Below are positions 4,921 through 57,073 of a stretch of DNA of 64,000 nucleotides, piece after piece. Numbering within the stretch: the stretch's first letter is position 1; each line of letters opens with the position of its first letter. Origin of the DNA: Gammaproteobacteria bacterium (lineage in GTDB: Bacteria; Pseudomonadota; Gammaproteobacteria; Eutrophobiales; Eutrophobiaceae); contig OZ252091.1 in the NCBI GenBank assembly GCA_965248145.1, positions 2,626,649-2,690,648 of the forward strand, written 5' to 3'. Position numbers and translations under genes: made by a program. The notes under the pieces were generated by a model, which searched no databases, was not told the origin of the DNA, and saw nothing but the letters and a program-made list of their open reading frames with translations.

Positions 4921-4935
4921 GTAAATGTTTAATTT

Positions 4936-9466: not shown

Positions 9467-9649
9467 GCCACAGAGGACACAGAGATCACAGAATCAGGGA
9501 AGAAGCAGGTTGGGATGGCCTTTTTAAGACCGTCGCCAGCCAGGGATGGCTGGCGATGAGCGTACAGGGACGTATTCACAGCGTGTCTTAAAAAGGCCAT
9601 GCCAACCTGCTGGAGTTATTATATTGAATGACTCTGTGTCCTCTGTGGC
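9467..9649. mobile_element. MITE-like repeat (type A ends) with a different internal core containing nested palindromes.
   Basis: It has the same GCCACAGAGGACACAGAGATCACAGA / CTCTGTGTCCTCTGTGGC termini. The interior carries the inverted repeats AGGTTGGGATGGCCTTTTTAAGAC / GTCTTAAAAAGGCCATGCCAACCT and CGCCAGCC-AGGG-ATGGCTGGCG. Confidence 0.7.
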
Positions 9650-11920: not shown

Positions 11921-12426
11921 GGTGACTTTCTCCTTTTTCATGTTGATGTTGCTAAATAGTAAAAGAGTAACGGGAGCATGTCAAAGTTAACAGTATGTCG
12001 CCAGGAGCGACTTATTGCACACGCAGAGGTTTGTCACACTCATTATCTTTGCGTGTGCAATGTGCGACCTGTCCCCCGTGTCCCCCGGACCCCACTGTCC
12101 CCCGATACGGGACCGTACACATTATATGTTACAGATACTGACAGTTTATCTATTCCTAACATTGATCTATACTGTTCCATACCATATATGATACGCTGTT
12201 TTATAAATACATAACATGCCCGTTTTCGTATCAGCGTACCGGGCAAGCTCTATCATGCCCGGTTTTGGCAGACGCGATGAGACGGGCAGATCATTAGAGG
12301 AGATAACGCGAATGAGATTTGAAAAAGCCTATTATGGTTGGACAGCGCGGCGCTTAACCCGGGAGGCTGCGGCGACAGTTGAGCAACCGGTTTCACACAC
12401 TATCTTCGCGAACCGCTAACAAAGGC

Positions 12427-12456
12427 TTGACATTCCTGATTTTTACTCACTAATAA
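12427..12456 (+). promoter_or_regulatory. Sigma70-like promoter (TTGACA - 17 nt - TAATAA) directly upstream of, and overlapping, the ATG that precedes the heptanucleotide repeat.
   Basis: Read directly: TTGACAttcctgatttttactcacTAATAATG. It marks the sharp boundary between AT-normal DNA and the GC-rich island. Confidence 0.35.
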
Positions 12457-13883
12457 TGTTCGACCGAGAGCCGAGAGCCGAGAGCCGAGAGCCGAGAGCC
12501 GAGAGCCGAGAGCCGAGAGCCGAGAGCCGAGAGCCGAGAGCCGAGAGCCGAGAGCCGAGAGCCGAGAGCCGAGAGCCGAGAGCCGAGAGCCGAGAGCCGA
12601 GAGCCGAGAGCCGAGAGCCGAGAGCCGAGAGCCGAGAGCCGAGAGCCGAGAGCCGAGAGCCGAGAGCCGAGAGCCGAGAGCCGAGAGCCGAGAGCCGAGA
12701 GCCGAGAGCCGAGAGCCGAGAGCCGAGAGCCGAGAGCCGAGAGCCGAGAGCCGAGAGCCGAGAGCCGAGTTGTGTCCGCAATTCGCCGGGGCGCGCCATG
12801 CCCCGGCTGGACGCAGCGTCACGAAGCGCGCCGCCTGAGCCTTCCCGGGCCGCGCGCTTCTTCCGCCCTGCCGATTGTTTCCTCCGCGTCGGGGCGGGGC
12901 TTGCGCGGGCGGGACGCCGTGGCCTCCCGGCGGGGCTGCTTGCAATCGTGTTGCTGGTCTTTCCGGTCGCTGCCGGAGCCGGGGCCGGCAATGCCACCGG
13001 CAGGCCGAGTTTTTCGGGGCAACCGATCCAAACCGGGGTGATTACCGCCATCACCAGCGGGATCGGGGATCCCGACGGGGTGGACACCGGCACTTTCGCA
13101 TACGAATGGCTTCGCTGTGACTCGACCGGCAACAACTGCAATACCACTGCCGGGACGGCCTCGACCTATACGCTGACCAATGCCGATATCGGCTTCAGGT
13201 TCAGGCTGCGGGTGAACTTCGAGGACAGCGATGGCAATGCCGAGTCGCGCACCAGCTTTCCATGGCCATCACGCTCCGGGAATGCGATCTACGCGTACCC
13301 GGCCTGCGCCGAGTCGGACTTGACGAGTCTCGACAGTATGAACCGAACGGCAATCTGGACCGGGACGCTGACGGTGGGGTTCTTCAAACAAGACAACACT
13401 TCCTTCTATGGGCGGGGACGGAGAGCTGGAACTTGGTACGGTCAACTCACCGATTCAGTGTTCTCTATCGATTCGAAAAACTACAGATTGCGCCTCCTCA
13501 ATTCGGAAGACGGCGGGACGGGGGACGGTGACCTTAACGTCGTATTCTACACCGCAACAAATGAAGCCTTGGGAAGCGCACACTACGCCGCACACCGCGC
13601 CGCTCTTGAGGAATATGCTCAAGTGCACATCTGCGACAAGGCGTTTGTCATAAGCGAAGCATCAAATTCGAACAGAAGTACGTATGTTTTTCTCGCTGCT
13701 TTTGAGCCCTTTCTGAGCGGGAGCACCCGGACGATACGCGTGAGCGTGCCGAATTCACTCTTGAACGCCGCACCGGAATCGATGGACAACAGCGTGGCGA
13801 CCAACGAGGACGAGGCCTACACCTTCCAGGTAAGCGACTTCCACTTCACCGACCCCGACATGGGGGCGCGCTCGCGAGCGTGA
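12456..13883 (+). CDS. 5' part of a giant GC-rich surface adhesin-like gene: heptamer repeat, signal/TM-like segment, cadherin/VCBS-like repeat. It is interrupted by a frameshift at about 13862-13866.
   Basis: Hydrophobic LLAIVLLVFPVAAGAGAG segment. Repeat module GVITAITSGIGDPDGVDTGTFAYEWLRCDSTG...YTLTNADIGFRFRLRVNFEDSDGNAES. The C-terminal domain (...YTFQVSDFHFTDPD) continues in the next ORF in another frame. Confidence 0.6.
   Translation: MFDREPRAESREPRAESREPRAESREPRAESREPRAESREPRAESREPRAESREPRAESREPRAESREPRAESREPRAESREPRAESREPRAESREPRAESREPSCVRNSPGRAMPRLDAASRSAPPEPSRAARFFRPADCFLRVGAGLARAGRRGLPAGLLAIVLLVFPVAAGAGAGNATGRPSFSGQPIQTGVITAITSGIGDPDGVDTGTFAYEWLRCDSTGNNCNTTAGTASTYTLTNADIGFRFRLRVNFEDSDGNAESRTSFPWPSRSGNAIYAYPACAESDLTSLDSMNRTAIWTGTLTVGFFKQDNTSFYGRGRRAGTWYGQLTDSVFSIDSKNYRLRLLNSEDGGTGDGDLNVVFYTATNEALGSAHYAAHRAALEEYAQVHICDKAFVISEASNSNRSTYVFLAAFEPFLSGSTRTIRVSVPNSLLNAAPESMDNSVATNEDEAYTFQVSDFHFTDPDMGARSRA
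12464..12769. repeat. Heptanucleotide simple sequence repeat, (CCGAGAG)n equivalent to (GAGAGCC)n, about 43 perfect copies.
   Basis: Perfect 7-bp periodicity over ~305 bp starting 6 nt after ATG 12456. Translated it gives (REPRAES)n in all three frames. Unit length is not a multiple of 3, so copy number sets the reading frame. Confidence 0.95.
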
Positions 13884-26615: not shown

Positions 26616-26935
26616 TTTTCACACTCCCAAAAAATCAGCCGCCGCTACATCCACAAAATTCTTTTATGGATCATTACAATGCTTAAGAAACTCTGATTTA
26701 ATCAGAGTTTCCTGCGACACGTCCTTGTGTTATTACAATTATACGTCAATTGACTAAGTTTAGTCGTATGACGTATTTTTTTGCAAGTAATAATCATAAA
26801 ATAGTTTCCTTAAACAGGCAAAACGCTTCATTCCCGAGGATGAGTTGCGGGCAGGATTCTTTTCAGATTGACTGGACGGGGATCTTAAACGATTATCCGT
26901 AACCAGACGAGATAGCCTGCGGACATCAGCAGGAG

Positions 26936-40177: not shown

Positions 40178-40191
40178 AAATGAAAAAACCT

Positions 40192-40323
40192 GCCACAGAG
40201 GGCACAGAGATCACAGAGTGGATCGAGAATCTTTTTAGTACCTGGATAACCTTCATGTTTATCAATTTATCTTGTCCATTATTCATTTTGTTTCTTCTCT
40301 GTGATCTCTGTGTCCTCTGTGGC
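40192..40323. mobile_element. MITE-like repeat (type A), full copy, inserted in the nuoC-nuoD intergenic region.
   Basis: GCCACAGAGGGCACAGAGATCACAGAGT ... TCTCTGTGATCTCTGTGTCCTCTGTGGC. It abuts the nuoC stop codon at 40324-40326. Confidence 0.75.
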
Positions 40324-41004
40324 TTATATTTTTTTCTCGGGTGCGGCATAACGATTATCGTGCCTGATCGTCTTGGGCACCAGTACGCGGTTTTTGATCG
40401 TGACCGGCTGGTACACGACCCGGCCCTGTTCCGGGTCATAGCGGACTTCCACGTTGCCTTCCAGGGGAAAATCCTTACGGAAAGGGTGTCCGACAAAACC
40501 ATAGTCCGTCAGGATGCGCCGCATGTCCGGATGTTCCGTGAAGAGGATGCCAAACAGGTCAAAGGCCTCCCGTTCAAACCAGTTGGCGCCGGCCCAGATG
40601 GGTGTCACCGAGGCAATCTTGGCCGGTTGGCCGGAGATAAAACTGCGCAGCCTTAAACGCTGGTTGCGTTTTATTGACAACAGGTGATAGACCACTGCAA
40701 ACCGGTCTTCAATATCCTGTGTGTCGATATATACACCCTGGCTGACCCCGCGACTGAAACCCGTCCTGGTCGTCACCTCGGTTTCCCAGTCCGCCTTGCC
40801 GTAGGTCAGGTAATCGACACCGCATAAGTCGGATAATTGCTTGAACGCCAGGGTCTCATCGTCTCGCAGGATCAGGCACACGTCCGTTATATCCTCAGGC
40901 TTGATTTCGATGGTAACCTGGCCTGTCTCCAGCTTGTCCGTGATTATCTTTGCGCCGAGACGCTCGCGCAGGTCTTTGAGAAGCGTAGCCGGGGACGGTG
41001 TCAT
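40324..41004 (-). CDS. nuoC: NADH-quinone oxidoreductase subunit C.
   Basis: 30-kDa subunit blocks, at the expected operon position. Confidence 0.85.
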
Positions 41005-41512: not shown

Positions 41513-41869
41513 TTACTCCCATTCCAGCGCACCTTTCCGCCATTCATAAATGAATCCGACGACCAGGACAGCCAGAAACAGCATCATGGCCCAGAATCCG
41601 ACCATCCCTATCTCCCGCAATGCAACCGCCCAGGGAAAGAAAAAGGCGATTTCAAGATCAAAAATGATAAACAGGATGGCAATAAGATAATAACGCACGT
41701 CGAATTGCATCCTGGCGTCATCAAATGCCTCAAAACCGCATTCATAAGGCGACTGTTTCTCACTGTCAGGCTGCTTCGGACCAAGAAGATAACCGAGGGC
41801 AAATAGTATGACCCCAAACCCCAGCCCGACAACCAGAAAGATCAGTATTGGCAGATAGTTTTCTAACAT
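41513..41869 (-). CDS. nuoA: NADH-quinone oxidoreductase subunit A.
   Basis: About 118 aa with 3 TM segments and the ...YECGF...FDVRYYL... blocks. Start chosen at MLENYLPIL. Confidence 0.8.
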
Positions 41870-42244
41870 GGGGGGCATTATACTCGTATTACTGCACAAA
41901 AAAAGTGCAGACCCTGACTTAATCCATTTACAAGTTATTGTCATTTTATGTCCGGACTGTTACACATCAAACATGCGGCTATTTTCGCACTGCTTATGAG
42001 CGCCTTCTTGTTTGTGTCTCAAGGCTTATATGCAAGCAGCACAAAGCTCAGCGAGGCTGAGACCCAGGCCGTAGAGAAAGCGGCGGTGGATTCGGAAGAG
42101 CAGAAAAAGCAACGGGAAGCCATCGCGGTTTAGCCCGGAGATACAATTATGGCAGGAAGCTGAATATCTGGGCATCTGCATTGGCCGGAGAAAATAGCCT
42201 GTGATGACAGGGAGCGGATTCGATTGATTTAGTGGCTAACTCCT

Positions 42245-42511
42245 TCAAAAAAGATCGGCATGGGTTCCCGTCCGTCGCAGAATCAAGCACTTGTCATCGA
42301 TCTCATAGATCAGAACCCAGTCTGGGCCAACATGCGCGTCCCAAGTATGATCATACTTCCCGGACAATTTGTGGGGTCGGGCTCCCGGTGGCAGCGGCTG
42401 ATCACTGGCCAGCCTCTCGATGAATGCCTCCAGCTTTTGAATATCCCAGCCTCGTTTTTTGATCTGCCTGTAGTCCTTGAGAAAGCGGTTGGTATAAGAA
42501 ATCTCTCGCAT
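42245..42511 (-). CDS. yafQ: Type II toxin YafQ/RelE family (mRNA interferase).
   Basis: 88 aa, with the FLKDYRQIKKRGWDI...HKLSGKYDHTWDAHVGPDWVLIY pattern. It lies immediately downstream of a DinJ-like gene. Confidence 0.75.
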   Translation of the reverse strand: MREISYTNRFLKDYRQIKKRGWDIQKLEAFIERLASDQPLPPGARPHKLSGKYDHTWDAHVGPDWVLIYEIDDKCLILRRTGTHADLF

Positions 42512-42513
42512 TC

Positions 42514-42783
42514 CTACGCTGCGTGACTCCGCGCCTCAAGATCGGCGAAAAGCTCCTTGGTGGAATCAAACCGTCTCAGGCTTTCCGCGGGTTCTTCCAG
42601 GGCTGCGATGGTGTCAGCATTGGGTATGCAAACATCAAATGGCAACCCCTTACGCAGGACCAATTGACTTAGCGCCATACGGATAAACTCTGTGGGTTTC
42701 AGTCCAAGTTGAGAGAGCACGGCTTCGGCTTGGGCTTTCAGTTCCGGTTCGACTCGGATTTGCATCTGTCTGGTTCTGGTCAT
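42514..42783 (-). CDS. dinJ: Type II antitoxin DinJ/RelB family.
   Basis: 89 aa, with a ribbon-helix-helix N-terminus MQIRVEPELKAQAEAVLSQLGL. It is 2 nt from the toxin gene. Confidence 0.75.
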   Translation of the reverse strand: MTRTRQMQIRVEPELKAQAEAVLSQLGLKPTEFIRMALSQLVLRKGLPFDVCIPNADTIAALEEPAESLRRFDSTKELFADLEARSHAA

Positions 42784-42892
42784 AGTGATACCTTGTCTTG
42801 TTTTTGTCTGATTATAGTCTGAACGATTTTGCTACCATTTGCAATACATATTGTCATAAGGTTCTCCCGCGTCCGGCAAAAATAGTATCTTT

Positions 42893-43010
42893 ATTGTTTT
42901 ACCCAGCAAAGAAGGCGATTATTCGCTGGCATGGCATAATCGTGTTGTATATACAGGCCTACTGCATTTGCCAATTGCTCAACGTCTTCAAAGTTCCTGA
43001 TGCCACTTTC
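42893..43010 (-). pseudogene. Duplicated 3'-terminal fragment (~118 bp) of the DUF938 methyltransferase gene.
   Basis: Nearly identical to 44683-44800, which is the real 3' end of CDS 44663-45277. It is flanked by REP sequences. Confidence 0.6.
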
Positions 43011-43323
43011 GGGATGGAGTTCTAGGCACGAGTTCCAGGGACACAATATTTAATTTTGCTATTCTGTCAGTATGATCATCCTGGCATTGAGAGGGCGTTG
43101 GGCCGAGTGGTGATAAAGAAAAAATAGGCGCAATAAAACGAATTAAGTATTGTGTCCCTGGAATTCCGGACCGTTACAGATCGAAGATGTGGTTGTTTCC
43201 GCGTTGCTGTTAAGCGCTTTCGTCGGTTTGGTATTTTATGTACGGTAAGATATTATTGATATATTTGATATATAAGATATCAAATGCTATAATCTTTCCC
43301 AAGTGATATCAGGAGGATGGCTT

Positions 43324-43560
43324 ATGACCGATATTCTAATTCGAAACATTGATAATCAATTAGACAAGGCATTAAAAATCAGGGCAATACAACATGGCCG
43401 AACCCGTGAAGCCGAAATCAAGTTTATCTTGAAGGCCACGGTTTCCCGGAGGCCTGAAAAACGCTCACTGGCTGAGGTCTTAATGGATATTCCCAAGCTG
43501 GATGTCGATGTAGACAATTTGTTTAAACGACCTGCCGGTTCCTCCCGCAATATGGATTAG
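43324..43560 (+). CDS. Ribbon-helix-helix antitoxin (FitA/VapB-like).
   Basis: MTDILIRNIDNQLDKALKIRAIQHGRTREAEI is a typical RHH N-terminus. It lies upstream of, and 7 nt from, a PIN toxin gene. Confidence 0.6.
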   Translation: MTDILIRNIDNQLDKALKIRAIQHGRTREAEIKFILKATVSRRPEKRSLAEVLMDIPKLDVDVDNLFKRPAGSSRNMD

Positions 43561-43567
43561 GTATGCC

Positions 43568-43993
43568 GTGTATTTGTTGGATACCAATGTAATATCGCAA
43601 TTCACCAAACGACAGCCAAATCCCGGCGTCACGGCATTTATAAAGGAAGCTGATGATGCAGAATCTTCTCTCTATTTATCCGTTATAACCATCGGCGAGA
43701 TTAACAAGGGCATTGTCAGGCTGACTCGTTATAACGACCTCCAACAAGCAGAAAAGCTAAGACAATGGTATAAGCAGTTGAAGATCGATTTTGCAGATTT
43801 TTTATTACCGATAGACGTGGACACAACGGTGATATGGGGAGAGGTTCTGGCTGCAACAGACGATACCAATGCTATCGACAAGCTCATTGCGGCAACGGCT
43901 TTACAATATGGTTTAACATTGGTTACACGCAATATTGATCACCTGATTGGTACGGGCGCCAAGTGTGTCAACCCATTTATCCCGGCAGAATAA
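43568..43993 (+). CDS. vapC: PIN-domain ribonuclease toxin (VapC/FitB-like).
   Basis: MYLLDTNVIS...D...TRN blocks of the PIN domain. GTG start. Confidence 0.8.
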   Translation: MYLLDTNVISQFTKRQPNPGVTAFIKEADDAESSLYLSVITIGEINKGIVRLTRYNDLQQAEKLRQWYKQLKIDFADFLLPIDVDTTVIWGEVLAATDDTNAIDKLIAATALQYGLTLVTRNIDHLIGTGAKCVNPFIPAE

Positions 43994-44143
43994 AAGACGC
44001 AGAAACAAAACTCCTTGATATAAAAGAGACTTCTTCTATCTCATTACACGCAATGATTTAACTACCATGAAATACCTCCGTATGCTACCTTCATCTTTGG
44101 AAAAATAACACGCGCATCAATTCACATTATAGGAGTTGGAATC

Positions 44144-44518
44144 ATGAGCAACATACCCGCAGATACAAGTGATAATGACCTGATTGAAAAGACTGTTCAG
44201 TTCTATATTGATGGAGCAAAATCCGGGAAGGGTGATGGTATGAAACCGGCGTTCCACACAGACGCGACGATCTTTGGATACATTGGTGATGACTTATTTG
44301 CCGGACCGATACAGAAACTTTTTGACTGGAACGATGAAAATGGAGCAGCAACAGGACTCGAAGCAAGAATAGCCAACATTGATATAGTTGGCACAGTCGC
44401 AACGGTCCGTCTTGAACTCGACAACTGGACCGGTCATAAATTTACTGACCTCTTTACATTGCTGAAAGTCGATGGTGATTGGAAGATTATGAATAAAGTT
44501 TTTTATCTCCATGCTTAG
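44144..44518 (+). CDS. NTF2-like / putative lumazine-binding family small protein.
   Basis: 124 aa with an NTF2-fold pattern (…TVQFYIDGAKSGKGDGMKPAFHTDATIFGY…GDWKIMNKVFY). Confidence 0.45.
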   Translation: MSNIPADTSDNDLIEKTVQFYIDGAKSGKGDGMKPAFHTDATIFGYIGDDLFAGPIQKLFDWNDENGAATGLEARIANIDIVGTVATVRLELDNWTGHKFTDLFTLLKVDGDWKIMNKVFYLHA

Positions 44519-44662
44519 GGAAACTTTGATTTATTCAGAGTTTCCTACGGTACAAGGAGGTACCGTCAAAATCGATTGGGAGTTCTGGGGAGACAATACT
44601 TAATTCTGTAAATCAATGGAGGCAGACTTGCTAGAATTAAGTATTGTCTCCCCAGGAACTCA

Positions 44663-45277
44663 TCAATTTCGTCGTTTTTGTTTTACCCAGCAAAGAAGGC
44701 GATTATTCGCCGGCATGGCATAATCGTGTTGTATATACAGGCCTGCTGCATTTGCCAGTAGTTCAACGTCTTCAAAGTTCCTGATGCCGCTTTCAGGATT
44801 ACTTTGTTTCAGCCATATATCAAATCTCGCATTGCTGTCGCTGGTATAGGCATTGTTGTAATTGAACGGGCCATAAAGCACGAGCAAACCATTATCGGGT
44901 AGCAGCTGCCCTACTCCGGCGATCATGGCCTTGACTGAGTCCCACCCCATAATATGTATCGCATTGGCGGAAAACACGGCATCTACTTTTAACTTTGACC
45001 AATACGCCTGGGTAACATCCAGTATGAGGGGTAGAGGCGTATTGGCTAAGTTTGCCTCACTCAACCATAATTCGATTCCTGCATGATTCTCCTGCAGGTC
45101 ACTGCTGTGCCAGATCAGGTGCGGTAATTTCTCTGCGAAATAAACAGCGTGCTGCCCGGTACCGCTGCCTATCTCCAGAACTGCCTTACTGCCAGCGAAC
45201 AATACTTCAATAATCTCAAGAATCGGTTGCCGATTGTTATCACAGGCAACGGAATACGGTTTGTTTGACATAAACAA
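44663..45277 (-). CDS. Class I SAM-dependent methyltransferase, DUF938 family.
   Basis: VLEIGSGTGQHAVYFAEKLP glycine-rich SAM motif. Length 204 aa. Confidence 0.7.
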   Translation of the reverse strand: MFMSNKPYSVACDNNRQPILEIIEVLFAGSKAVLEIGSGTGQHAVYFAEKLPHLIWHSSDLQENHAGIELWLSEANLANTPLPLILDVTQAYWSKLKVDAVFSANAIHIMGWDSVKAMIAGVGQLLPDNGLLVLYGPFNYNNAYTSDSNARFDIWLKQSNPESGIRNFEDVELLANAAGLYIQHDYAMPANNRLLCWVKQKRRN

Positions 45278-45757: not shown

Positions 45758-48088
45758 TTAAAATGAAAGGCGCACGCCGAATATACCGGAACGTCCCGGT
45801 AACGGCGCCAGTTCTTTTACAAAAGACGTATGCCGGCGTATCTCTTCATCAAGCAGGTTGCTGGCGCTGGCAAACAGGGTAACATTATTGCCGGCCTGAC
45901 TTAGTCGGTAGCTGGCATAGAGGTTCAACAAGTCATAACCATCGGTAGGCGTTTCAAACAGCGCGGTGTCATTCTGTTTATTTACACGGGTATAACTCAG
46001 GGTCGCATACCAGGGACCCTGAAAATAAGTCAAGCCGGCGCCAAACCGCCAGGGAGTAATACGCGGCAGGTTGACATTATCAGAACGCTTACCTTCCACA
46101 TAATCTGCCCATAAACGTATATCCAGCGAGCCACTTTCGCCTTCCAGGGCATGTACGACTCCTTCCAGCTCAAAACCCATGAACTCCGCATCGTCCTGGA
46201 CCTGGGCAACGAGCAAGTGGACGCCATCCTCGTCCGGGTCCCGGATACCGGCCAGGTCGCCGGCGAAATCATCATGCACCCAGTCAGCGATGCCATCCTC
46301 GTTCAGGTCCTGCTCCTTCAGGAATATGAAATCATCAATCCGGTTATAGAATAAATTGACCGTGAGGGTGAGCCTCCCCGTCGCTTTCCGCCAGTAGAAA
46401 TCAATATTAGTAGACTTTTCCTTGCTCAGCTCAGTATCGCCATACTCAAACGTCGTTGTCGCGAGATGCGGACCTGCAGTATACAACTCCTCCAGAGACG
46501 GCGCCCGTTGCGCATGGGTGGCGACAAGACCCAGTTCATAACCGTCGCGGTAGTCCCAGTTCAGGCCGCCGGAGATGCTGAACAGGTCATGGCTGGTTTC
46601 CCCGCCGTTATCAGCGCTGGTGTCCTGATATTCATATCTGGCGCCGAATTCCATGTGCCAGTTCCCCATGTCACCTTTTTCCAACAAGAACGCGGCAATG
46701 GACTCCAACTCTGAGGGCGGGACAAAGTCTTCTTCGCCTATCGCGGCAAAATCCTTGTAGTGATACTGCAGACCGACGGCCCCTTGCCAGCCACCGAGGG
46801 GGTGATGCACAATCTCGACGCGGGCTTCCATCTCATTATTGTCAAAGGCCACACCTACGTTGCCGTCGGCTTCCACTTCATCATGATGATAGTCGTTGTA
46901 TGACGAGCGCGTTTTGATCCGGTGTATGCCGATAAAAGGATCATATAAGGACGCCTCGAAGTCATAACGTGTCTGCCCCATGTCTATCCGTGGGCGGCCT
47001 TCTCCTCCATGCCCCCCTTCTTCCTCGTGATGTCCCTCTTCCTCATCATGCCCTTCTTCCTCATGATGTTCCTCTTCATCATCATGATCTTCTCCCTCAT
47101 GGAAATCAATTCCATCCAGCAGATCTGTTTCATCATCATGATGGTGGTCTCCCAGAATGCCATAGTTGTTGTCAAGTCGGCTCACGGAAAAGCCGATGAA
47201 CCCGCGTTCACCGATCCAGGATGCCCCTGCTGCCACACTTTCCGTTTCGATACTGCTGTTTTCCAGTACGCCTTTCTCCATCTCATCATCCGGGTCCCTG
47301 TCCAATTCGGCGAACCCGGGAATTTTGTAGTCGTCGGTATGACGTTTCATACCGTCGATGTGAAAGGCGAAATTCCCTGCTCCGACGCTGAAGCTTCCGC
47401 CGCCGTTCACACCATCGTTGACGGTTTCATATTGTAGCGATATATCGGCCTGCAGGTCTTCCGGGACATATTTGGGAATGCGATCATTAACGACGTTGAC
47501 CACGCCGCCACTGGCGCCACTGCCAAAAAGCAACGTGGCAGGGCCACGAAAAATCTCAATCTGCCGGGCAAACGCAGGCTCCGTAGGTACTGCATGGTCA
47601 GCGCCTATATTGGCCACGTCCATGGTACTGATGCCATTTTCGAGCACGCTTACCCGACTGCCGGCCAGACCGCGAATGACGGGACGTCCTACCGCTGCAC
47701 CGAAATCACCGGAGCTCACGCCCAGCTCATTGGCAACCGCCTCTCCAATATTATGGATGCTACGGCTTTCGAGTTGTTTTTTTGTCAATACCTGGGCAGG
47801 TCGCGCCATGTGTTCATCTATATCACCCAATGGGTCGGCAGTGACGATTATCTCTTCCATATACTCATGACCAGCCGATGTGTGGGTATGACCCCCCGGT
47901 GTAAGCGAACGCTTGGGCGGTGTATGGGTATGACTGGCCGGTGTGTGGGCGTGCTCATCCTCCGCAGGCACGCTGGCAGCCGGGTCGTGCGCATCGCCGG
48001 CAACTTCATCGGCAAATGAAAACGATGCATGGATAACCACGACGATGGTCAACGAGGCTATACCTATTAATCGTAATGAATCAGGCAT
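45758..48088 (-). CDS. TonB-dependent receptor with His-rich N-terminal extension and a His/Glu/Asp-rich surface loop (ZnuD-like metal-uptake receptor).
   Basis: Plug and barrel blocks. N-terminal HAHTPASHTHTPP...GGHTHTSAGHE, and an internal loop HHHDDETDLLDGIDFHEGEDHDDEEEHHEEEGHDEEEGHHEEEGGHGGEG. Confidence 0.8.
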   Translation of the reverse strand: MPDSLRLIGIASLTIVVVIHASFSFADEVAGDAHDPAASVPAEDEHAHTPASHTHTPPKRSLTPGGHTHTSAGHEYMEEIIVTADPLGDIDEHMARPAQVLTKKQLESRSIHNIGEAVANELGVSSGDFGAAVGRPVIRGLAGSRVSVLENGISTMDVANIGADHAVPTEPAFARQIEIFRGPATLLFGSGASGGVVNVVNDRIPKYVPEDLQADISLQYETVNDGVNGGGSFSVGAGNFAFHIDGMKRHTDDYKIPGFAELDRDPDDEMEKGVLENSSIETESVAAGASWIGERGFIGFSVSRLDNNYGILGDHHHDDETDLLDGIDFHEGEDHDDEEEHHEEEGHDEEEGHHEEEGGHGGEGRPRIDMGQTRYDFEASLYDPFIGIHRIKTRSSYNDYHHDEVEADGNVGVAFDNNEMEARVEIVHHPLGGWQGAVGLQYHYKDFAAIGEEDFVPPSELESIAAFLLEKGDMGNWHMEFGARYEYQDTSADNGGETSHDLFSISGGLNWDYRDGYELGLVATHAQRAPSLEELYTAGPHLATTTFEYGDTELSKEKSTNIDFYWRKATGRLTLTVNLFYNRIDDFIFLKEQDLNEDGIADWVHDDFAGDLAGIRDPDEDGVHLLVAQVQDDAEFMGFELEGVVHALEGESGSLDIRLWADYVEGKRSDNVNLPRITPWRFGAGLTYFQGPWYATLSYTRVNKQNDTALFETPTDGYDLLNLYASYRLSQAGNNVTLFASASNLLDEEIRRHTSFVKELAPLPGRSGIFGVRLSF

Positions 48089-48160
48089 TGAACAAAATCC
48101 TCGTCAGTCGAGCGGAGAGATAGTCGAATTTATCTTCTCACAAGCACAAATAGCACGAAT

Positions 48161-49135
48161 TCAGTCGGTCGAGCGCACAGGGGCGACCAGGTGAGCAAAA
48201 TGGTGATCTTCAGTGCATCCCTCCAGTGACTTTTCCACCTGAAGGGTAATATGGCCGATACCGAAATCATGGGAAACAATCTCCCGCAGGCGCAAACGCA
48301 GGTCTTCCATGTCATCCGGGTAGTCCGGATCGATGAGGACGTGCGCGGTGAGCGCCTCGTTGCCTGGAGAGAGTGTCCAGACGTGGATGTCATGGACGAG
48401 GGTGACGCCTTCCACCGCTTCCAGTTTGCTGCAAAGATCATACACGTCAATATGTTCGGGCGTACCCTCGAGCAATACGTGAACGACCTTTGCCAGCAGG
48501 CGCCAACTGCTGATAAGTATGAGAAGAGCAATGATCACACTGGCAATGGGGTCGGCAAGCGTCCAGCCGAAAACCAGGATAAGAGTACCTGAAACAACGA
48601 CGCCCACCGACCCCAGCAGGTCCGCGATAACATGCATAAAGGCACCCTCAACATTGAGGTTATGCTCGGAAGAACCATGGAGGATCCAGGCTGCGGCGAT
48701 ATTGACGCCAAGACCGATGATGCCTATGCTCAGCATCAACTCGCCTTTTACCTCAGGTACGGATGTGAAGCGGTCATAGGCCTCGACTATCACCCAGGCC
48801 GCGATTAGCCAGAGGGCCAGTGCATTCAGCAAGGCTGCCAGTATCTCAAGCCGGTGATAACCAAAGGTGCGTTGCACGGAGAAAGGTCGCTCGGCAAACA
48901 GCATGGCGACCAGGGCCAGTGCAATGGTTGCCGCGTCGGTAAGCATGTGTCCCGCATCAGCGAGCAGCGCCAGACTGCCGGACAGCACACCGCCGATAAC
49001 CTCAACGAACATAAAACCGGCGATCAAAATAAAGGCAGCGATCAGGCTCCGCTTGCCGGCATTGCGCAACTCATGGGAATGATCATGTTTGCCCGGACCA
49101 TGGTGACCATGGTGGCTGTGACTATGACCTTTCAT
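48161..49135 (-). CDS. Cation diffusion facilitator family divalent-metal efflux transporter (CzcD/ZitB-like).
   Basis: His-rich N-terminus MKGHSHSHHGHHG, six TM segments with the CDF signature, and a C-terminal cytoplasmic domain. Confidence 0.85.
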   Translation of the reverse strand: MKGHSHSHHGHHGPGKHDHSHELRNAGKRSLIAAFILIAGFMFVEVIGGVLSGSLALLADAGHMLTDAATIALALVAMLFAERPFSVQRTFGYHRLEILAALLNALALWLIAAWVIVEAYDRFTSVPEVKGELMLSIGIIGLGVNIAAAWILHGSSEHNLNVEGAFMHVIADLLGSVGVVVSGTLILVFGWTLADPIASVIIALLILISSWRLLAKVVHVLLEGTPEHIDVYDLCSKLEAVEGVTLVHDIHVWTLSPGNEALTAHVLIDPDYPDDMEDLRLRLREIVSHDFGIGHITLQVEKSLEGCTEDHHFAHLVAPVRSTD

Positions 49136-49983
49136 ACCCAGATCCCAATCGCTGCCATACTGGCCAGGCCAACGAATATCAGCGCGAACTTGAATATGCG
49201 ATCCGTATCATGCGAAGGCATTGCCACGTCATCGTCCCCGAGTAACGAACTCCGTACGAAATGCGCAATGCGGTCATCGATCCTGGACATCTCAGCATTG
49301 ATGATATCCAGGATGGCTATGTAAATAAAGGTCCCTGCAGCCAGCGCGTTGAAACTCCCTTCGATCAACAACGCGGCTCGCCCTTCAAAAAAGCCGGAGG
49401 CCACCGTACCGAGCACGATCCCCAACGGCGTCATCAGGACAAAGATAGTCAAGACTGTCCATAAGCGTTTCCTGTCAGCGCCTGAGGCATGCACGCTGAC
49501 CATCAGGGCAAAGGCAGCTGATCCCTTGTGGAACAGGATGGCTAGCATGACCAGCAAGGAAGCAGCCACTTCAGCCTCAAGCCCAAGGGCGATGCCGGCG
49601 ATAATGGAGTGGATAGACAGTACCACAAGCAGAATTAAAGGGTAGATGGGCTGGTGAGTCTCCTCGCCCTGCCCCGGATCGAGCGTACGGTTGGTTTCGA
49701 ACAGAACACGGTCGATAAGCAGCAGCACGAGCACGCCGACTGCCGCCAACAACGGCGCAAGCGGGTAGTCGATCAACTCCTCAAGCGCTTCGCCGGCTTC
49801 AGGTAGCAGGTGAATGAACCCGGCGCCGAGAAAGATACCGCCTGCCAGGGCATTGCCCATCGACATAAAGCGGCGGCTTGTGTCGTGACGGGCAACCAGG
49901 AGCGGGATGATACCTCCGACGATACCCATAACGAGAATCGCTAAAGCGGCAACGACCTTGATCGCAAATAATGACGTGATCAT
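49132..49983 (-). CDS. ZIP-family metal cation transporter (ZupT/GufA-like).
   Basis: Eight TM segments with the HSIIAGIALG...HKGSAAFAL ZIP motifs. It overlaps the CDF gene by 4 nt. Confidence 0.7.
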   Translation of the reverse strand: MITSLFAIKVVAALAILVMGIVGGIIPLLVARHDTSRRFMSMGNALAGGIFLGAGFIHLLPEAGEALEELIDYPLAPLLAAVGVLVLLLIDRVLFETNRTLDPGQGEETHQPIYPLILLVVLSIHSIIAGIALGLEAEVAASLLVMLAILFHKGSAAFALMVSVHASGADRKRLWTVLTIFVLMTPLGIVLGTVASGFFEGRAALLIEGSFNALAAGTFIYIAILDIINAEMSRIDDRIAHFVRSSLLGDDDVAMPSHDTDRIFKFALIFVGLASMAAIGIWV

Positions 49984-50049: not shown

Positions 50050-50225
50050 TCCGACGCCGCTCGTTAGTTCTGGGTAGTTCTGGGGACACGGGGTAGTTCT
50101 GGGGACACTAGTTCTGGGGACACAATACTTGGGTAGTTCTGGGGACACAATACTTAATTTCCAATTAGTTCTGGGGACACAATACTTAATTTCCAATTAG
50201 TTCTGGGGACACAATACTTAATTTC
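50050..50225. repeat. Array of 6 direct REP-like units (TAGTTCTGGGGACAC[AATACTTAATTTCCAAT]) immediately upstream of the RAYT gene.
   Basis: Direct reading. The same REP consensus (GTTCTGGGGACACAATACTTAATT) occurs singly or in inverted pairs at about 43030, 43140, 44585, 44640, 50910, 51800-51920, 52365, 56000 and 56130. Confidence 0.75.
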
Positions 50226-50239: not shown

Positions 50240-50908
50240 ATGGCAAGACTGACAAGGATCGTTCTACCCGGTTATCCCCACCATGTGACCCAGCGGGGCA
50301 ACCGTCGCCAGGATGTATTTTTTTGTGACGGCGATTTGCAGGCTTATCTGACTCTACTCAAGCAATGGTGCGCCAGGGAGTCGGTGCAGGTCTGGGCGTA
50401 CTGTCTGATGACCAACCACGTCCATCTGATTGTCAAACCGGAAGAAGGTTCCAACCTTAGCCGGGCCATCGGGGAGACACACAGGCGTTACACAAGGATG
50501 ATAAATTTTCGGGAACAATGGCGCGGCTATTTGTGGCAGGGTCGGTTTGCTTCCTTTGTGCTGGATGAACCGTGGTTGCTGCAGGCGGTTGCGTATGTGG
50601 AATATAATCCGGTGGCGGCGGGGATGGTAGCTCGGCCCTGGGATTATCGTTGGAGTAGCGTCCATGCCCATTTGGCTGGGGAGGACTCTCTGGGGATAGT
50701 GGAGGTAGCTCCGTTACTTGATTTAGTTGGGGGCGACTGGCAGGCCTACTTGAGTTCGTACAAGGTAGATGGGGACGGGAACTTTGCAACCCATGAGCGC
50801 ACGGGCAGACCTTTGGGGGATGAGGGATTTATTGACAGGATTGAGAGTGCGTTGAGCCGGGTGGTGAGAAAGAAAAAACCGGGGCCAAAACAACGGCAGG
50901 ATAATTAA
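50240..50908 (+). CDS. REP-associated tyrosine transposase (RAYT, IS200/IS605 Y1 HUH family).
   Basis: The HUH motif MTNHVHLIV and a downstream catalytic-Tyr region. Length 222 aa. It is flanked by REP arrays. Confidence 0.8.
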   Translation: MARLTRIVLPGYPHHVTQRGNRRQDVFFCDGDLQAYLTLLKQWCARESVQVWAYCLMTNHVHLIVKPEEGSNLSRAIGETHRRYTRMINFREQWRGYLWQGRFASFVLDEPWLLQAVAYVEYNPVAAGMVARPWDYRWSSVHAHLAGEDSLGIVEVAPLLDLVGGDWQAYLSSYKVDGDGNFATHERTGRPLGDEGFIDRIESALSRVVRKKKPGPKQRQDN

Positions 50909-50999
50909 GTATTGTGTCCCCTGAATTAATTAAAACTATAGTACCTGATAATACAGAATTTTCTTGAAATTATAACACCTAGTATTATATATTGATTGT

Positions 51000-51416
51000 A
51001 TGAGTAATGGCATGGAAAGCCCAAAAACCAGGATTTTCAAGAACAAGCGGTTTTGTCGCTTCGCCCGGAAGGAGGGAATTGAGGACGCTGACGTGTGTGA
51101 GGCGATCAGCAATGCCGATAAAGGGCTGATAGATGCCGACCTCGGTGGTGGCCTGATCAAGCAAAGGATCGCGGGATCTAACAAAGGAAAGTCAGGTGGA
51201 TACAGGTCGATTATCCTGTTTCGCTCCAGCGATAAGGCTTTCTTCGTGTACGGTTTCGCGAAGAGCGAGCGAGACAACATTAAGAAAGATGAACTGATAG
51301 GCTTCAAGGATCTGGCGGATGAAATGTTTGGTTATGGCGAGTCCGCACTTGCCAAGGCCCTGAAGAGCGGAGCAATCGTAGAGGTAAAATGCAATGAAAA
51401 AGAATTATCGAAGTGA
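51000..51416 (+). CDS. Type II toxin, RelE/HigB-like (toxin-first module).
   Basis: 138 aa with the ...KSGGYRSIILFRSSDKAFFVYGFAKSERDNI... core typical of HigB-2/RelE-fold toxins. It is followed by an overlapping HTH antitoxin gene. Confidence 0.5.
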   Translation: MSNGMESPKTRIFKNKRFCRFARKEGIEDADVCEAISNADKGLIDADLGGGLIKQRIAGSNKGKSGGYRSIILFRSSDKAFFVYGFAKSERDNIKKDELIGFKDLADEMFGYGESALAKALKSGAIVEVKCNEKELSK

Positions 51417-51711
51417 CGTCCTCGGTGCGATCCATGAGACTGCCTTGGATCTCCATGACGCTGGCGTCATGGACAAGCGCACGCTACGTAAATTCGACAA
51501 TATGTGCCTGACCCCGGTGCGTACAATGAATCCGGAGGAAATTCGTGCGCTTCGCAGGCGTGAGCATGTGAGTCAAGCCGTCTTTGCGATATACCTGAAC
51601 GTTTCCAAGGGAGTGGTCAGCCAGTGGGAGCGCGGTGAGAAGCATCCTGCCGGAGCGTCTCTCAAGCTCCTGTCCCTGGTTCAGGAGAAGGGGTTGGATG
51701 CTATCGCATGA
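51394..51711 (+). CDS. HTH XRE-family antitoxin (HigA/NadS-like).
   Basis: 105 aa. The C-terminal HTH VSQAVFAIYLNVSKGVVSQWERGEK is classic for COG2944-type antitoxins. It overlaps the toxin gene by 23 nt. Confidence 0.65.
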   Translation: MKKNYRSDVLGAIHETALDLHDAGVMDKRTLRKFDNMCLTPVRTMNPEEIRALRRREHVSQAVFAIYLNVSKGVVSQWERGEKHPAGASLKLLSLVQEKGLDAIA

Positions 51712-51754
51712 CCTGCCCCCCTACGCTGTTGACGGGCCAATTTACGGGGAGGAG

Positions 51755-51930
51755 GTCACGGGTGGTGAGAAAGAAAAAACCTGGGCCAATACAACGGCAG
51801 GATAATTAAGTATTGTGTCCCCATAATTTTTGCATAATTTTTGACGGCAGGATAATTAAGTATTGTGTCCCCATAATTTTTGGTGTCCCCATAATTGCCA
51901 GTATTGTGTCCCCAGAATTGTTCCAGAATT
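51755..51930. repeat. Degenerate copies of the RAYT 3'-end plus REP units.
   Basis: CGGGTGGTGAGAAAGAAAAAACCTGGGCCAATACAACGGCAGGATAATTAAGTATTGTGTCCCC matches the end of the RAYT CDS (50860-50925) and is then repeated. Confidence 0.6.
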
Positions 51931-55958: not shown

Positions 55959-56278
55959 TCGGGGCGTAAGCTGAAGTTGAATCCACCTTCATTTATGATA
56001 ATTCATCGAATTCTGGGCGAATTCTGGGGACATAATACTTAATTCGTTTTTCGAGCCTATTTTTTCTTTCTCACACCCGACCCAACGCTCTCTCAAGACC
56101 AGGATGACCATACTGACAGAATGGCAAAATTAAATATTGTGTTCCTAGAACTCTAAAACTACATTAAAACACAATATAATCTATTTTTCTTTCCTTTTTA
56201 TGCTTTTCTTAGTAGTACTATATTAAAATTCATGATATTCTCTAAAAACGTTATCAATCTGAATTTTGATATAGTTAG

Positions 56279-57073
56279 ATGAGTAATCAGCCTTCAAAAA
56301 GACAACAGCGATTAGCGGCACTATTACGCGCAACATCCGGCACAATCCGAGTATCTGATGCTATGCGGATTCTGGGTGCTGACCGGCAACATGCATCCAG
56401 ATTGCTGGCGGGATGGCATAAACAAGGAGTTATCCGGCGCGTTGCACACGGTTTGTACGTTCCTGTCCAGCCATCTGCGCTAGGGCAAACCCAGGTGCTT
56501 GAAGACCCATGGGTGCTGGTGCCGGAGTTATACACGCCAGGCTACATCGGTGGTTGGAGTGCCTTGGAACACTGGGAGCTGACGGAGCAGCTTTTCAGGT
56601 CAATCTGTGTACTTACCAATAAGCGGGTCGCCTATGGTGCAACCACACATCAAGGTGTTAACTTTTTTATCAAATATGTTGCTGAAAGGCATTTGTTTGG
56701 CACAAAAACCATATGGCGAGAAAATGCGAAGATACAGATTTCAGACCCATATAAAACACTGTTAGATTGTATCGATCATTTGGACTTGGGTGCAGGTTTG
56801 CAACATGTAACAGATTGCTTGATCGAATTTACACGGGTGTTCGACAAACCTGGCGATCTTGATGCTTTGCTGAACTACGCTATTCAATTCAATAATGGTG
56901 CGTTGTTTAAAAAACTGGGTTATCTGGCTGAAACGCTTGAGTTCAATCCTTCTTTTATCAATGCATGCCGAGAACGCATAACATCGGGTTATGCCACTCT
57001 CGATAAAAAAGCTGAGAATAATCGATTGGTTACAAGGTGGAATTTATGGGTGCCAGGAGATAGGACGAAATGA
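56279..57073 (+). CDS. Type IV TA antitoxin, AbiEi family (transcriptional regulator).
   Basis: 264 aa with an AbiEi_4-type N-terminal wHTH (...IRVSDAMRILGADRQHASRLLAGWHKQGVIRRVAHGLY...). Confidence 0.65.
   Translation: MSNQPSKRQQRLAALLRATSGTIRVSDAMRILGADRQHASRLLAGWHKQGVIRRVAHGLYVPVQPSALGQTQVLEDPWVLVPELYTPGYIGGWSALEHWELTEQLFRSICVLTNKRVAYGATTHQGVNFFIKYVAERHLFGTKTIWRENAKIQISDPYKTLLDCIDHLDLGAGLQHVTDCLIEFTRVFDKPGDLDALLNYAIQFNNGALFKKLGYLAETLEFNPSFINACRERITSGYATLDKKAENNRLVTRWNLWVPGDRTK

What the first reader, a model, noticed from the sequence alone, without database searches (positions are those of the whole stretch)
42893..44800. 118-bp direct duplication of the DUF938-methyltransferase 3' end brackets an inserted VapBC-like TA module plus NTF2-like gene
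Positions 42893-43010 and 44683-44800 are about 95% identical. The second copy is the authentic 3' end of CDS 44663-45277, and the first is an orphan fragment. Between them lie REP elements (43030, 43140, 44585, 44640), the RHH antitoxin and PIN toxin pair, and a small NTF2-like gene. This is the footprint of a segmental insertion or duplication, plausibly REP/RAYT-mediated, that delivered a TA cassette next to the DinJ-YafQ pair.
Basis: seen in the sequence. Interest (0 to 1): 0.5.

Follow-up and report, generated by a model that had tools for sequence, protein, structure and literature searches.

The report
Decayed tandem duplication beside nuoA
The 128-base repeat is real, but it is a leftover of an old local duplication of a small gene block that was later invaded by toxin-antitoxin cassettes and REP elements, not the scar of a VapBC insertion, so it is an ordinary piece of genome decay.

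Summary
The repeat exists: 42888-43015 matches 44672-44799 (128 nt, 93%). Copy 2 is the 3' end of an intact DUF938 gene (D). Copy 1 (D') is an orphan stub cut off exactly where a REP element starts. The REPs belong to a real REP/RAYT system, with its RAYT gene at 50240-50908. The "REP pair" at 43016-43167 is an internally deleted RAYT.

The insertion story is not supported. A sister genome (L167/L168, nuo genes 98-99% identical) carries the same D'-DinJ-YafQ-miniRAYT block, 99.5% identical. There, D' and D bracket a full-length gene S, a second NTF2-like gene and a restriction-gene remnant. VapBC lies outside the bracket. L167 shows three direct-repeat pairs in the same order (D/D', N1/N2, S/S''). 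The window also holds a second, unnoticed fragment of S (43167-43226).

The best reading is two tandem units of [D, N, S]. These later decayed, were invaded by VapBC, DinJ-YafQ and REP elements, and were reshuffled by recombination between the repeats.

DinJ-YafQ occurs only in the window genome, its strain variant and the L167/L168 sister genome. VapBC and the NTF2-like gene lie near D in many clade members. Interest is low to moderate.

The parts
41513..41869 (-). nuoA, first gene of the nuo operon. It anchors synteny with all relatives.
   Evidence: tblastn shows 88-98% aa identity to L001, L002, L003 and L167. Pfam Oxidored_q4 appears in the called genes.
41870..41947 (.). nuoA promoter region fused to 'Sup', the conserved upstream region of gene S.
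   Evidence: 41912-41947 matches the S-D intergenic region of L008 (0/2000 shuffles reach the score). 41870-41927 matches the D-nuoA spacer of L170 (0/2000).
41948..42133 (+). S': the first 61 codons of a conserved ~201-aa gene S, truncated. This is the S copy of the nuoA-proximal unit. The final TAG (42131-42133) is probably the relic stop codon of a deleted NTF2-like gene copy.
   Evidence: tblastn of full-length S from L008/L002 matches only residues 1-61. Junction comparison: window ...GCGGTT|TAG|CCCGGAG versus L167 ...CATGCTTAG|CCCGGAG, where the NTF2-like copy N2 is intact.
42245..42511 (-). YafQ/RelE-family toxin.
   Evidence: Pfam YafQ_toxin E=1.7e-29. NCBIfam RelE_StbE.
42514..42783 (-). 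DinJ/RelB antitoxin.
   Evidence: Pfam RelB E=2.7e-11. TIGR02384 RelB_DinJ.
42888..43015 (-). D': orphan 3' stub (last 128 nt) of a DUF938 gene copy, with its stop codon preserved.
   Evidence: 93% identical to the intact gene's 3' end. 99.2% identical to the D' of L167.
43016..43167 (.). Mini-RAYT, made of a partial REP, the left REP, the RAYT 5' leader and start codon fused to the last ~55 nt of RAYT, and the right REP. It sits exactly at the truncated end of D'.
   Evidence: Alignment to the RAYT locus and to a second copy at 56020-56150 (88% over 137 nt). Hairpin of -56.7 kcal/mol, z = -6.5.
42130..43167 (.). Block C (spacer, YafQ, DinJ, spacer, D', mini-RAYT), shared as one piece with the sister genome.
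   Evidence: 99.5% identical (5 differences in 1038 nt) to L167 12608-13645. Homology breaks at both ends of the block.
43167..43226 (+). S'': a second, degenerate 5' fragment of gene S (nt 6-63). This is the S copy of the distal unit, cut off by the VapBC cassette.
   Evidence: 39/55 identical to S' nt 5-59, and 0/5000 shuffles reach the score. In L167 the same sequence carries its ATG and follows Sup and the nuoA promoter directly.
43227..43993 (+). VapBC cassette: conserved ~95-nt upstream region with a strong promoter-like site (43265-43293), FitA-like RHH antitoxin (43324-43560) and PIN toxin (43568-43993).
   Evidence: Pfam. Promoter scan scores 11/12. The cassette's left boundary is the same (43227-43233) in L002, L008 and L010, although its neighbours differ.
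44144..44518 (+). N: Lumazine_bd_2 (NTF2-like fold) gene, convergent with D.
   Evidence: Pfam PF12893 E=4.3e-27. Two copies in L167 (N1 and N2, 97.9% to each other, ~89% to the window copy).
44579..44661 (.). REPIN-like REP doublet (perfect 23-nt arms) lying 1-2 nt from the D stop codon. A late insertion.
   Evidence: Hairpin of -52.3 kcal/mol, z = -10.9. Absent at the homologous N1-D junction of L167.
44663..45277 (-). D: intact DUF938 SAM-methyltransferase-like gene (likely start 45271).
   Evidence: Pfam DUF938 E=1.4e-66. 95% aa identity to P0002 (L167), 84-88% to other relatives.
50240..50908 (+). RAYT-like Y1 (HUH) transposase gene, flanked by REP arrays at 50060-50224 (minus orientation) and 50903-50921 (plus orientation). 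It is the cognate transposase of the REPs in the finding.
   Evidence: Pfam Y1_Tnp E=1.2e-12. NCBIfam REP_Tyr_transpos is the only hit (70.6 bits, cut-off 80). HVH motif and YVEYNP tyrosine region are present.

Best explanation
The two copies of the DUF938 3' end are the D members of an old tandem (segmental) duplication. The duplicated unit ran, reading toward nuoA, [D forward, NTF2-like gene N reverse, gene S reverse with its upstream region Sup], and it lies just upstream of nuoA.

The window still shows two units.
- Distal unit: intact D, REPIN, N, VapBC, S'' (a 60-nt relic of S).
- nuoA-proximal unit: mini-RAYT, D' (a 128-nt relic of D), DinJ-YafQ, a TAG relic of N, S' (61 codons), Sup, then the nuoA promoter.

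Inferred steps after the duplication:
1. A VapBC cassette replaced most of one S copy.
2. DinJ-YafQ was inserted between D and N of the other unit.
3. That unit's D lost its 5' ~480 nt at the point where an internally deleted RAYT/REP element now sits.
4. In the window lineage, deletions removed the rest of S and N of the proximal unit, and the DNA between the mini-RAYT and S''.
5. A REPIN later landed between N and D.

Homologous recombination between the repeated S/Sup and N segments has permuted which unit carries VapBC. This is why the sister genome has VapBC on the other side of the D'-DinJ-YafQ block.

Shown directly: the repeat pairs, their order, the shared block and the differing bracketed content. 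Inferred: the order of events and the recombination pathway.
For: - L167 has three direct-repeat pairs in the same order and orientation: D/D' (94%, spacing 2287), N1/N2 (97%, spacing 2986) and Sup+S 5' end / Sup+S'' (76%, spacing 3249) (gene map).
- L168, from another sample, is 100% identical to L167 over 12.4 kb, so the arrangement is not a misassembly.
- The window holds a second S 5' fragment at 43167-43226, in the same orientation as S' (0/5000 shuffles). The window therefore has D/D' and S'/S'' pairs in the same order.
- The window junction S'|TAG|block C matches the L167 junction N2-stop|block C.
- D' and D share 3-4 derived substitutions against 12 outgroup genes, and each has private changes. 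They are sister copies, not a foreign import.
- D' of the window and D' of L167 are 99.2% identical, while D' versus D is 91-94%. The duplication therefore long predates the split of the two genomes.
- In L167, D' is preceded by a DUF1016/YhcG remnant. Full restriction systems sit at the 5' side of D in L001 and L171. This fits D' having once been a full gene with a normal neighbourhood.
- Outgroups carry a single D: no second D 3' fragment was found within 10 kb in any locus of the two collection scans. The simplest, L170, reads S, D, nuoA.
Against: - The three paralogue pairs have very unequal divergence: S'/S'' ~71%, D/D' ~93%, N1/N2 ~98%. A single duplication event then requires faster drift of the S relic and gene conversion between N1 and N2.
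- The postulated single-unit ancestor (D, N, S, Sup, nuoA) was not seen in any sampled genome. L170 has S, D, nuoA, so at least one earlier permutation is needed.
- The relic of N in the window is only 3-4 nt.
- Getting from the common structure to the window and to L167 takes several deletions plus one exchange. The path is not unique.
Confidence: 0.6

Rival explanations
1. Block C (mini-RAYT, D', DinJ-YafQ; 42130-43167) is a mobile or portable TA cassette. It picked up the 3' end of a DUF938 gene at an earlier site. It was then placed independently, or moved, within this hot spot, using its REP/RAYT end or its homology to resident REP/RAYT sequences.
For: - The block is shared as one discrete piece at 99.5% identity. 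Homology breaks fall exactly at both of its ends, and its neighbours differ on both sides in the two genomes.
- One end is precisely the end of a REP.
- The same mini-RAYT exists in a second copy at 56020-56150, so it has been copied.
- In the same window, a RelE/HTH module (50928-51758) is bracketed by a 70-nt direct repeat of 'RAYT 3' end + REP', and the sister genome has the empty site. This shows that REP/RAYT-linked TA insertion does occur in this genome.
Against: - The TA-side junction appears conserved (N stop|block C in L167, TAG|block C in the window). This suggests the block did not move relative to its own unit.
- Its 99.5% identity is not far above neighbouring DNA: nuoC 99.4%, S''+VapBC-upstream 98-99%.
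- There is no REP at the other end. No second copy of the whole block exists in the 64-kb window or in any locus.
- From established knowledge, IS200/RAYT-type enzymes are not known to carry cargo of this kind.
Confidence: 0.2
2. A VapBC+NTF2 segment bounded by REPs was inserted into the 3' end of D in an ancestor where D lay directly next to DinJ-YafQ, and it duplicated 128 nt of the target. The mechanism would be Campbell-type integration of a circle carrying the D 3' end, or REP/RAYT action.
For: - The window on its own fits: direct repeats flank 1.66 kb that carries REP elements at both ends and a TA pair.
- A single crossover within the D 3' end would give exactly the arrangement full D ... 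insert ... 128-nt stub.
Against: - In L167/L168 the same stub and D bracket other genes, and VapBC lies outside.
- The bracketed DNA contains paralogues of the flanks (S''), so it is local duplicated sequence, not foreign cargo.
- VapBC and N are found next to or near D in many clade members.
- No genome has the predicted empty site.
- There is no recombinase between the repeats.
- The REPIN at one junction is absent from L167, so it is younger than the duplication.
- From established knowledge, IS200/IS605-type Y1 transposition makes no target duplication.
Confidence: 0.1
3. D' is a small isolated patch copy of 128 nt. It would have been made by template switching or illegitimate recombination during repair at the REP element, unrelated to any larger duplication. 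The S'/S'' and N1/N2 pairs would have arisen separately.
For: - The very different divergence of the three repeat pairs.
- D' ends exactly at a REP, and short microhomologies are visible at the junctions.
Against: - Three independent local duplications that happen to fall in the same order and orientation are less parsimonious.
- The repeat ends at the natural stop-codon region of D, and D' is followed by an independent 3' flank.
- A DUF1016 remnant lies upstream of D' in L167, as expected for a once-complete gene with its neighbourhood.
Confidence: 0.1

Closest known systems
Tandem (segmental) gene duplication followed by pseudogenisation and by recombination between the repeats
   Same: Paralogous segments lie in the same order and orientation. 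One copy of each gene is intact and the other is reduced to a stub. Unit content is permuted between sister genomes, as expected from crossovers between direct repeats.
   Different: The units have been invaded by three kinds of mobile DNA (VapBC cassette, DinJ-YafQ, REP/RAYT elements), so almost nothing of the proximal unit remains. The divergence of the repeat pairs is uneven.
REP / REPIN - RAYT systems (Bertels & Rainey 2011, PMC3116915; Bertels et al. 2017, PMC5581495; GTAG-tagged REPs, PMC3733652)
   Same: A single Y1/HUH transposase gene is flanked by oppositely oriented REP arrays. REPs are scattered in intergenic DNA. REP doublets form long hairpins. A GTAG lies 5' of the REPs next to the RAYT gene.
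   Different: A single REP unit here is not itself palindromic. One element is an internally deleted RAYT gene with both REP ends, and it is present in two copies, which suggests the whole REP-RAYT-REP unit has been copied. RAYTs are described as typically single-copy (PMC5581495 abstract). The RAYT scores below NCBIfam's equivalog cut-off.
Campbell-type integration of islands into the 3' end of a gene, with the gene end duplicated as attL/attR
   Same: A direct repeat of a gene's 3' end flanks accessory DNA that carries TA genes.
   Different: There is no integrase or recombinase. No empty site exists in any relative. The content between the repeats differs in the sister genome. The repeats are 7% diverged.
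Chromosomal type II toxin-antitoxin cassettes in variable defence/TA islets
   Same: VapBC (RHH + PIN), DinJ-YafQ and RelE/HTH occur here. HicAB, HigBA-like pairs, DarTG and type I RM occupy the same D-nuoA neighbourhood in different relatives.
   Different: Nothing unusual about the TA genes themselves was found.

Membership tests
Tandem/segmental duplication relic | Two or more paralogous segments in the same order and orientation | tested here: met
   Window: D/D' and S'/S''. L167: D/D', N1/N2 and Sup+S/Sup+S''.
Tandem/segmental duplication relic | Single copy in outgroups | tested here: met
   No second D 3' fragment within 10 kb in any locus of the collection scans. The gene lists of L169-L171 show one D each. 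L170 reads S, D, nuoA.
Tandem/segmental duplication relic | Comparable divergence of all paralogue pairs | tested here: not met
   S'/S'' 71%, D/D' 91-94%, N1/N2 97.9%. Meeting this feature would require gene conversion and unequal drift.
Insertion with target duplication / Campbell-type island at a gene's 3' end | An empty site in a relative: one repeat copy with the outer flanks contiguous | tested here: not met
   No locus has DinJ-YafQ next to an intact D. In L167 the same repeats bracket different DNA.
Insertion with target duplication / Campbell-type island at a gene's 3' end | A site-specific recombinase encoded in or next to the insert | tested here: not met
   The 1.66 kb between the repeats encodes only VapB, VapC and the Lumazine_bd_2 protein.
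REP/RAYT (REPIN) system | Y1/HUH tyrosine transposase gene flanked by REPs in inverted orientation | tested here: met
   ORF 50240-50908: Pfam Y1_Tnp E=1.2e-12, HVH and YVEYNP motifs. REPs at 50141-50224 (minus orientation) and 50903-50921 (plus orientation).
REP/RAYT (REPIN) system | RAYT-specific protein model reached at the curated threshold | tested here: inconclusive
   NCBIfam NF047646 REP_Tyr_transpos is the only hit, E=1.2e-19, but 70.6 bits is below the cut-off of 80.
REP/RAYT (REPIN) system | Many extragenic REP copies, including inverted doublets that fold into hairpins | tested here: met
   10 matches to the REP 20-mer at up to 3 mismatches, against 0 expected. 14 sites with a looser 19-mer scan, all between 43.0 and 56.2 kb. 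The doublet 44579-44661 folds at -52 kcal/mol, z = -10.9.
REP/RAYT (REPIN) system | RAYT cleaves or mobilises these REPs, and caused the D duplication or truncation | not testable with these tools
   The evidence is positional only: the mini-RAYT abuts the truncated end of D' in both genomes.
Type II TA, VapBC | RHH/AbrB-type antitoxin gene immediately upstream of a PIN-domain toxin gene | tested here: met
   FitA-like_RHH E=2e-11 and PIN E=1.4e-13, with a 7-nt gap between the genes. Activity was not tested.
Type II TA, DinJ-YafQ | RelB/DinJ antitoxin gene upstream of a YafQ/RelE-fold toxin gene | tested here: met
   RelB E=2.7e-11 and YafQ_toxin E=1.7e-29, with a 2-nt gap.
Integron gene cassettes | attC sites at cassette boundaries and an IntI integrase | not tested
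   The boundary repeats are REPs of the RAYT family and do not look like attC. No systematic attC or IntI search of the window was made.

The most novel reading that the evidence does not exclude
In this genome, 'RAYT 3' end + REP' segments (mini-RAYTs) may act as portable recombination or mobilisation handles that shuffle toxin-antitoxin cassettes. Three observations point this way. DinJ-YafQ+D' is physically joined to a mini-RAYT. A RelE/HTH module is bracketed by a 70-nt repeat of RAYT 3' end + REP, with an empty site in the sister genome. A second mini-RAYT sits just upstream of an AbiEi-type gene. If this holds, a domesticated REP/RAYT system would be moving cargo genes, and the D' stub would be hitch-hiking DNA.
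Probability: 0.15. Interest if true: 0.55.

Novelty: new member of a known kind. Interest (0 to 1): 0.28.

Why it matters
The main value is as a correction. A direct repeat that flanks a TA pair looks like an insertion scar, yet one closely related genome shows it is a relic of a local duplication whose units have been scrambled. The locus between the S/DUF938 genes and nuoA is a strong hot spot. Different relatives carry VapBC, DinJ-YafQ, HicAB, a HigBA-like pair, DarTG or type I restriction systems there. It could therefore serve as a small natural example of how TA and defence cassettes turn over. The only mildly new element is the internally deleted RAYT, present in two copies and lying next to TA modules.

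Tried and rejected
1. Extending the repeat beyond the REPIN. With 44579-44661 removed, the flanks of the two copies show no further homology.
2. A second copy of the S-upstream motif downstream of D', as evidence for site-specific insertion of S'+DinJ-YafQ. The match is only marginal (34/2000 shuffles reach it), so I dropped it.
3. Similarity of the L001 D-nuoA spacer to the S-upstream region. Not significant (152/2000).
4. Homology of 43167-43226 to the VapB-D intergenic region of L002. None was found. That segment turned out to be an S 5' fragment.
5. An ancient two-D ancestor for the whole clade. Unlikely, because D and D' share derived substitutions against all 12 outgroups, unless gene conversion occurred.
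6. Recent horizontal transfer of block C, inferred from its 99.5% identity. Not convincing, because the nuo genes and the VapBC-upstream region are 98-99.4% identical.
7. Searching for the REP 19-mer in relatives. No exact match in the 160 loci held at the time, and none with up to 3 mismatches in the loci readable by the script then. Related REPs do occur in L167.
8. The metagenome scan with D gave nothing closer than 79%. Exact-protein look-ups of D from the TTG start and of the cupin found nothing.
9. Short-word BLAST of the five spacers against all loci gave no informative remnants.
Full report
**Observation.** The repeat is real. 42888-43015 and 44672-44799 are a 128-nt ungapped direct repeat with 119/128 identities (93%). 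Copy 2 is the 3' end of an intact DUF938 gene, here called D (44663-45277 on the minus strand, likely start 45271, Pfam E=1.4e-66). Copy 1, called D', is an orphan stub. Its ORF still hits the last 40 positions of the DUF938 profile (E=3.4e-10).
- two inverted-repeat elements;
- a FitA-like RHH antitoxin and a PIN toxin (VapBC-like, called V);
- a Lumazine_bd_2 (NTF2-like) gene, called N.

To the left are DinJ/RelB and YafQ (called T), a 61-codon ORF, and nuoA.

**The REPs.** The 19-20-nt core AATTAAGTATTGTGTCCCC occurs at 10-14 sites in the window, depending on the mismatches allowed, where none is expected. All sites lie between 43.0 and 56.2 kb. An ORF at 50240-50908 is a Y1/HUH transposase:
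- Pfam Y1_Tnp E=1.2e-12;
- its only NCBIfam hit is REP-associated tyrosine transposase, at 70.6 bits against a cut-off of 80;
- HVH and YVEYNP motifs are present.

This ORF is flanked by oppositely oriented REP arrays, so the REP/RAYT label is justified. The "REP pair" at 43016-43167 is in fact an internally deleted RAYT. It consists of the left REP, the RAYT leader and ATG, the last ~55 nt of the gene, and the right REP. A second copy with the same deletion junction lies at 56020-56150 (88% identity). The element at 44579-44661 is a REP doublet with perfect 23-nt arms (hairpin -52 kcal/mol). It lies 1-2 nt from the D stop codon.

**More distant relatives.** Scans with D returned 160 loci.
- The closest species representatives (L001 and L002, 84% aa) are sisters of each other (94% identity in nuo DNA). 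The window is about equally far from them and from L003 (81-84%).
- None has a second D fragment within 10 kb, and none has DinJ-YafQ or the cupin gene.
- V and N are found beside or near D across the clade: L002 has V divergent from D, L004/L005/L007 have N, and L008/L010 have V plus an N remnant convergent with D.
- Short vapB 3' remnants are fused to restriction-system genes downstream of D in L003 and L009.
- Further relatives found through the protein search show the range of content: L170 has S, D, nuoA with no TA. L169 has V, D, N, a HigBA-like pair, nuoA. L171 and L001 have a type I RM, D, nuoA.
- The 61-codon ORF at 41948-42133 is the truncated 5' end (S') of a conserved ~201-aa gene S.

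The neighbourhood of D upstream of nuoA is therefore a hot spot for TA and defence cassettes.

**Own genome and strain variant.** The window is 100% identical to a 3.77-Mb circular contig (ENA ERZ25766727). A 4x-coverage contig from the same sample is 99.3% identical over 13.5 kb and has the same structure. It diverges only beyond the cupin gene, where it carries DarTG and a type I RM that is ~85% aa identical to the RM next to D in L001.

**The decisive relative.** A DUF938 protein 95% identical to D (P0002) lies on L167 and L168. These are two assemblies from different samples, identical over 12.4 kb. Their nuoCBA genes are 98-99.4% identical to the window. Read with D on the plus strand, L167 has this order:
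- cupin, D, N1 (reverse), full-length S (reverse), Sup;
- a DUF1016/YhcG remnant, REP fragments, the mini-RAYT, D', DinJ, YafQ;
- N2 (reverse), VapC and VapB (reverse), a 63-nt S fragment (S'') with its ATG, Sup, the nuoA promoter, nuoA.

Window 42130-43167 (block C: spacer, YafQ, DinJ, D', mini-RAYT) is 99.5% identical to L167 12608-13645 (5 differences). Homology breaks exactly at both ends of the block. In L167, D' and D bracket the RM remnant, S and N1, and VapBC lies outside the bracket. L167 contains three direct-repeat pairs in the same order: D/D' (94%), N1/N2 (97%) and Sup+S/Sup+S'' (76%).

Guided by this, I found that window 43167-43226, which had looked anonymous, is S'' nt 6-63. 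It is 71% identical to S', and 0/5000 shuffles reach the alignment score. At the T side of block C the window reads ...GCGGTT|TAG|CCCGGAG, where L167 reads N2 ...CATGCTTAG|CCCGGAG. The window's TAG is therefore most simply the last codon of a deleted N copy. The REPIN is absent from the N1-D junction of L167.

**Interpretation.** Both genomes are two tandem units of [D, N, S+Sup] placed before the nuoA promoter.
- In the window, the distal unit is D, REPIN, N, V, S''.
- In the window, the proximal unit is mini-RAYT, D', T, (N deleted), S', Sup.
- In L167, V+S'' sits in the proximal unit and intact S in the distal one.

The two forms are interconvertible by recombination between the repeated Sup/S and N segments, for example excision at one repeat and reintegration at the other, plus deletions. 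N1 and N2 are 97.9% identical to each other but only ~89% identical to the window's N. This fits recent exchange between them.

D and D' share 3-4 derived substitutions against 12 outgroups, and each carries private changes. The D' copies of the two genomes are 99.2% identical, whereas D' versus D is 91-94%. The duplication therefore arose within this lineage but long before the two genomes split.

The D' truncation with the mini-RAYT at its edge is shared, and so is old. Whether the element caused the deletion or merely sits there cannot be decided. I put this reading at about 0.6. Its weak points are:
- the unequal divergence of the three repeat pairs;
- the absence of a sampled single-unit ancestor in the right order;
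- the number of steps required.

**Rivals.**
- (a) Block C is a portable TA cassette that carries D' as a passenger (0.2). Its discrete boundaries and REP end speak for this. The apparently conserved N-stop junction and the lack of extra copies speak against.
- (c) An isolated 128-nt patch copy (0.1).

**Comparison with known systems.** The feature behaves like an ordinary tandem duplication undergoing degeneration. It is overlaid by a REP/REPIN-RAYT system (PMC3116915, PMC5581495, PMC3733652) and by chromosomal type II TA cassettes. It is not an att-flanked island, because it has no recombinase and no empty site. The one slightly unusual item is the two-copy internally deleted RAYT, since RAYTs are described as typically single-copy (PMC5581495 abstract).

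**Side observation.** The RelE/HTH pair at 51000-51710 is bracketed by a 70-nt direct repeat made of the RAYT 3' end plus a REP (50858-50927 and 51759-51828, 94% identity). L167 has the uninterrupted site.

**Verdict.** This is a new instance of known processes, of low to moderate interest.

Noticed in passing
window 50858-51828: A RelE toxin (51000-51416, Pfam RelE E=1e-45) and its HTH partner (to ~51710) are bracketed by a 70-nt direct repeat (94% identity). The repeat consists of the last ~45 nt of the RAYT gene plus the adjacent REP. The sister genome L167 has a single copy of this sequence and no RelE/HTH, so it shows the empty site. This is a true TA insertion flanked by a duplication.
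   Followed up: partly
window 56020-56150: A second copy of the internally deleted RAYT (mini-RAYT), in opposite orientation, 88% identical to 43029-43166. It lies about 130 nt upstream of an AbiEi-antitoxin-like gene (56279-57073). Two copies with the same deletion junction imply that the REP-RAYT-REP unit has been copied.
   Followed up: partly
window 45716 and rightwards; L162/L165: A co-occurring strain (4x contig, 99.3% identical) diverges from the window inside the 5' end of the cupin gene. In place of the TonB receptor, CDF, ZIP and RAYT genes it carries an HATPase_c_4 protein, DarG-like and DarT genes, a UvrD-like helicase and a type I RM. This is strain-level replacement of a >5-kb block next to D.
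   Followed up: partly
window 45758-49983: A likely zinc-uptake/homeostasis cluster upstream of D and the cupin gene: a TonB-dependent receptor with a long His/Asp/Glu-rich insert (45758-48088), a CDF cation-efflux protein (48161-49135) and a ZIP transporter (49132-49983). D starts only ~38 nt after the cupin stop codon, so it may be co-transcribed with this cluster.
   Followed up: no
window 12394-12853: A perfect tandem array of a 14-nt unit, about 30 copies.
   Followed up: no
window 3176-3318, 4788-4930, 9466-9512, 40191-40333: A second dispersed repeat family, unrelated to the RAYT REPs (core GCCACAGAGGACACAGAGATCACAGAG, up to 143 nt, 64-91% identity). One copy lies between nuoC and nuoD.
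   Followed up: no
L003 10248-11549 and L009 11377-11799: In several relatives the last ~34 codons of vapB survive as the C-terminal tail of restriction-system genes downstream of D (a DUF1016/YhcG protein in L003, a YgjP-like protein in L009). These appear to be gene fusions left by replacement of the VapBC cassette with RM islands.
   Followed up: partly
window 44520-44547 and 26687-26713: A 27-nt palindromic, terminator-like sequence just after the stop codon of the NTF2-like gene recurs at 26.7 kb (93% identity). It may be another small repeat family or a shared terminator.
   Followed up: no
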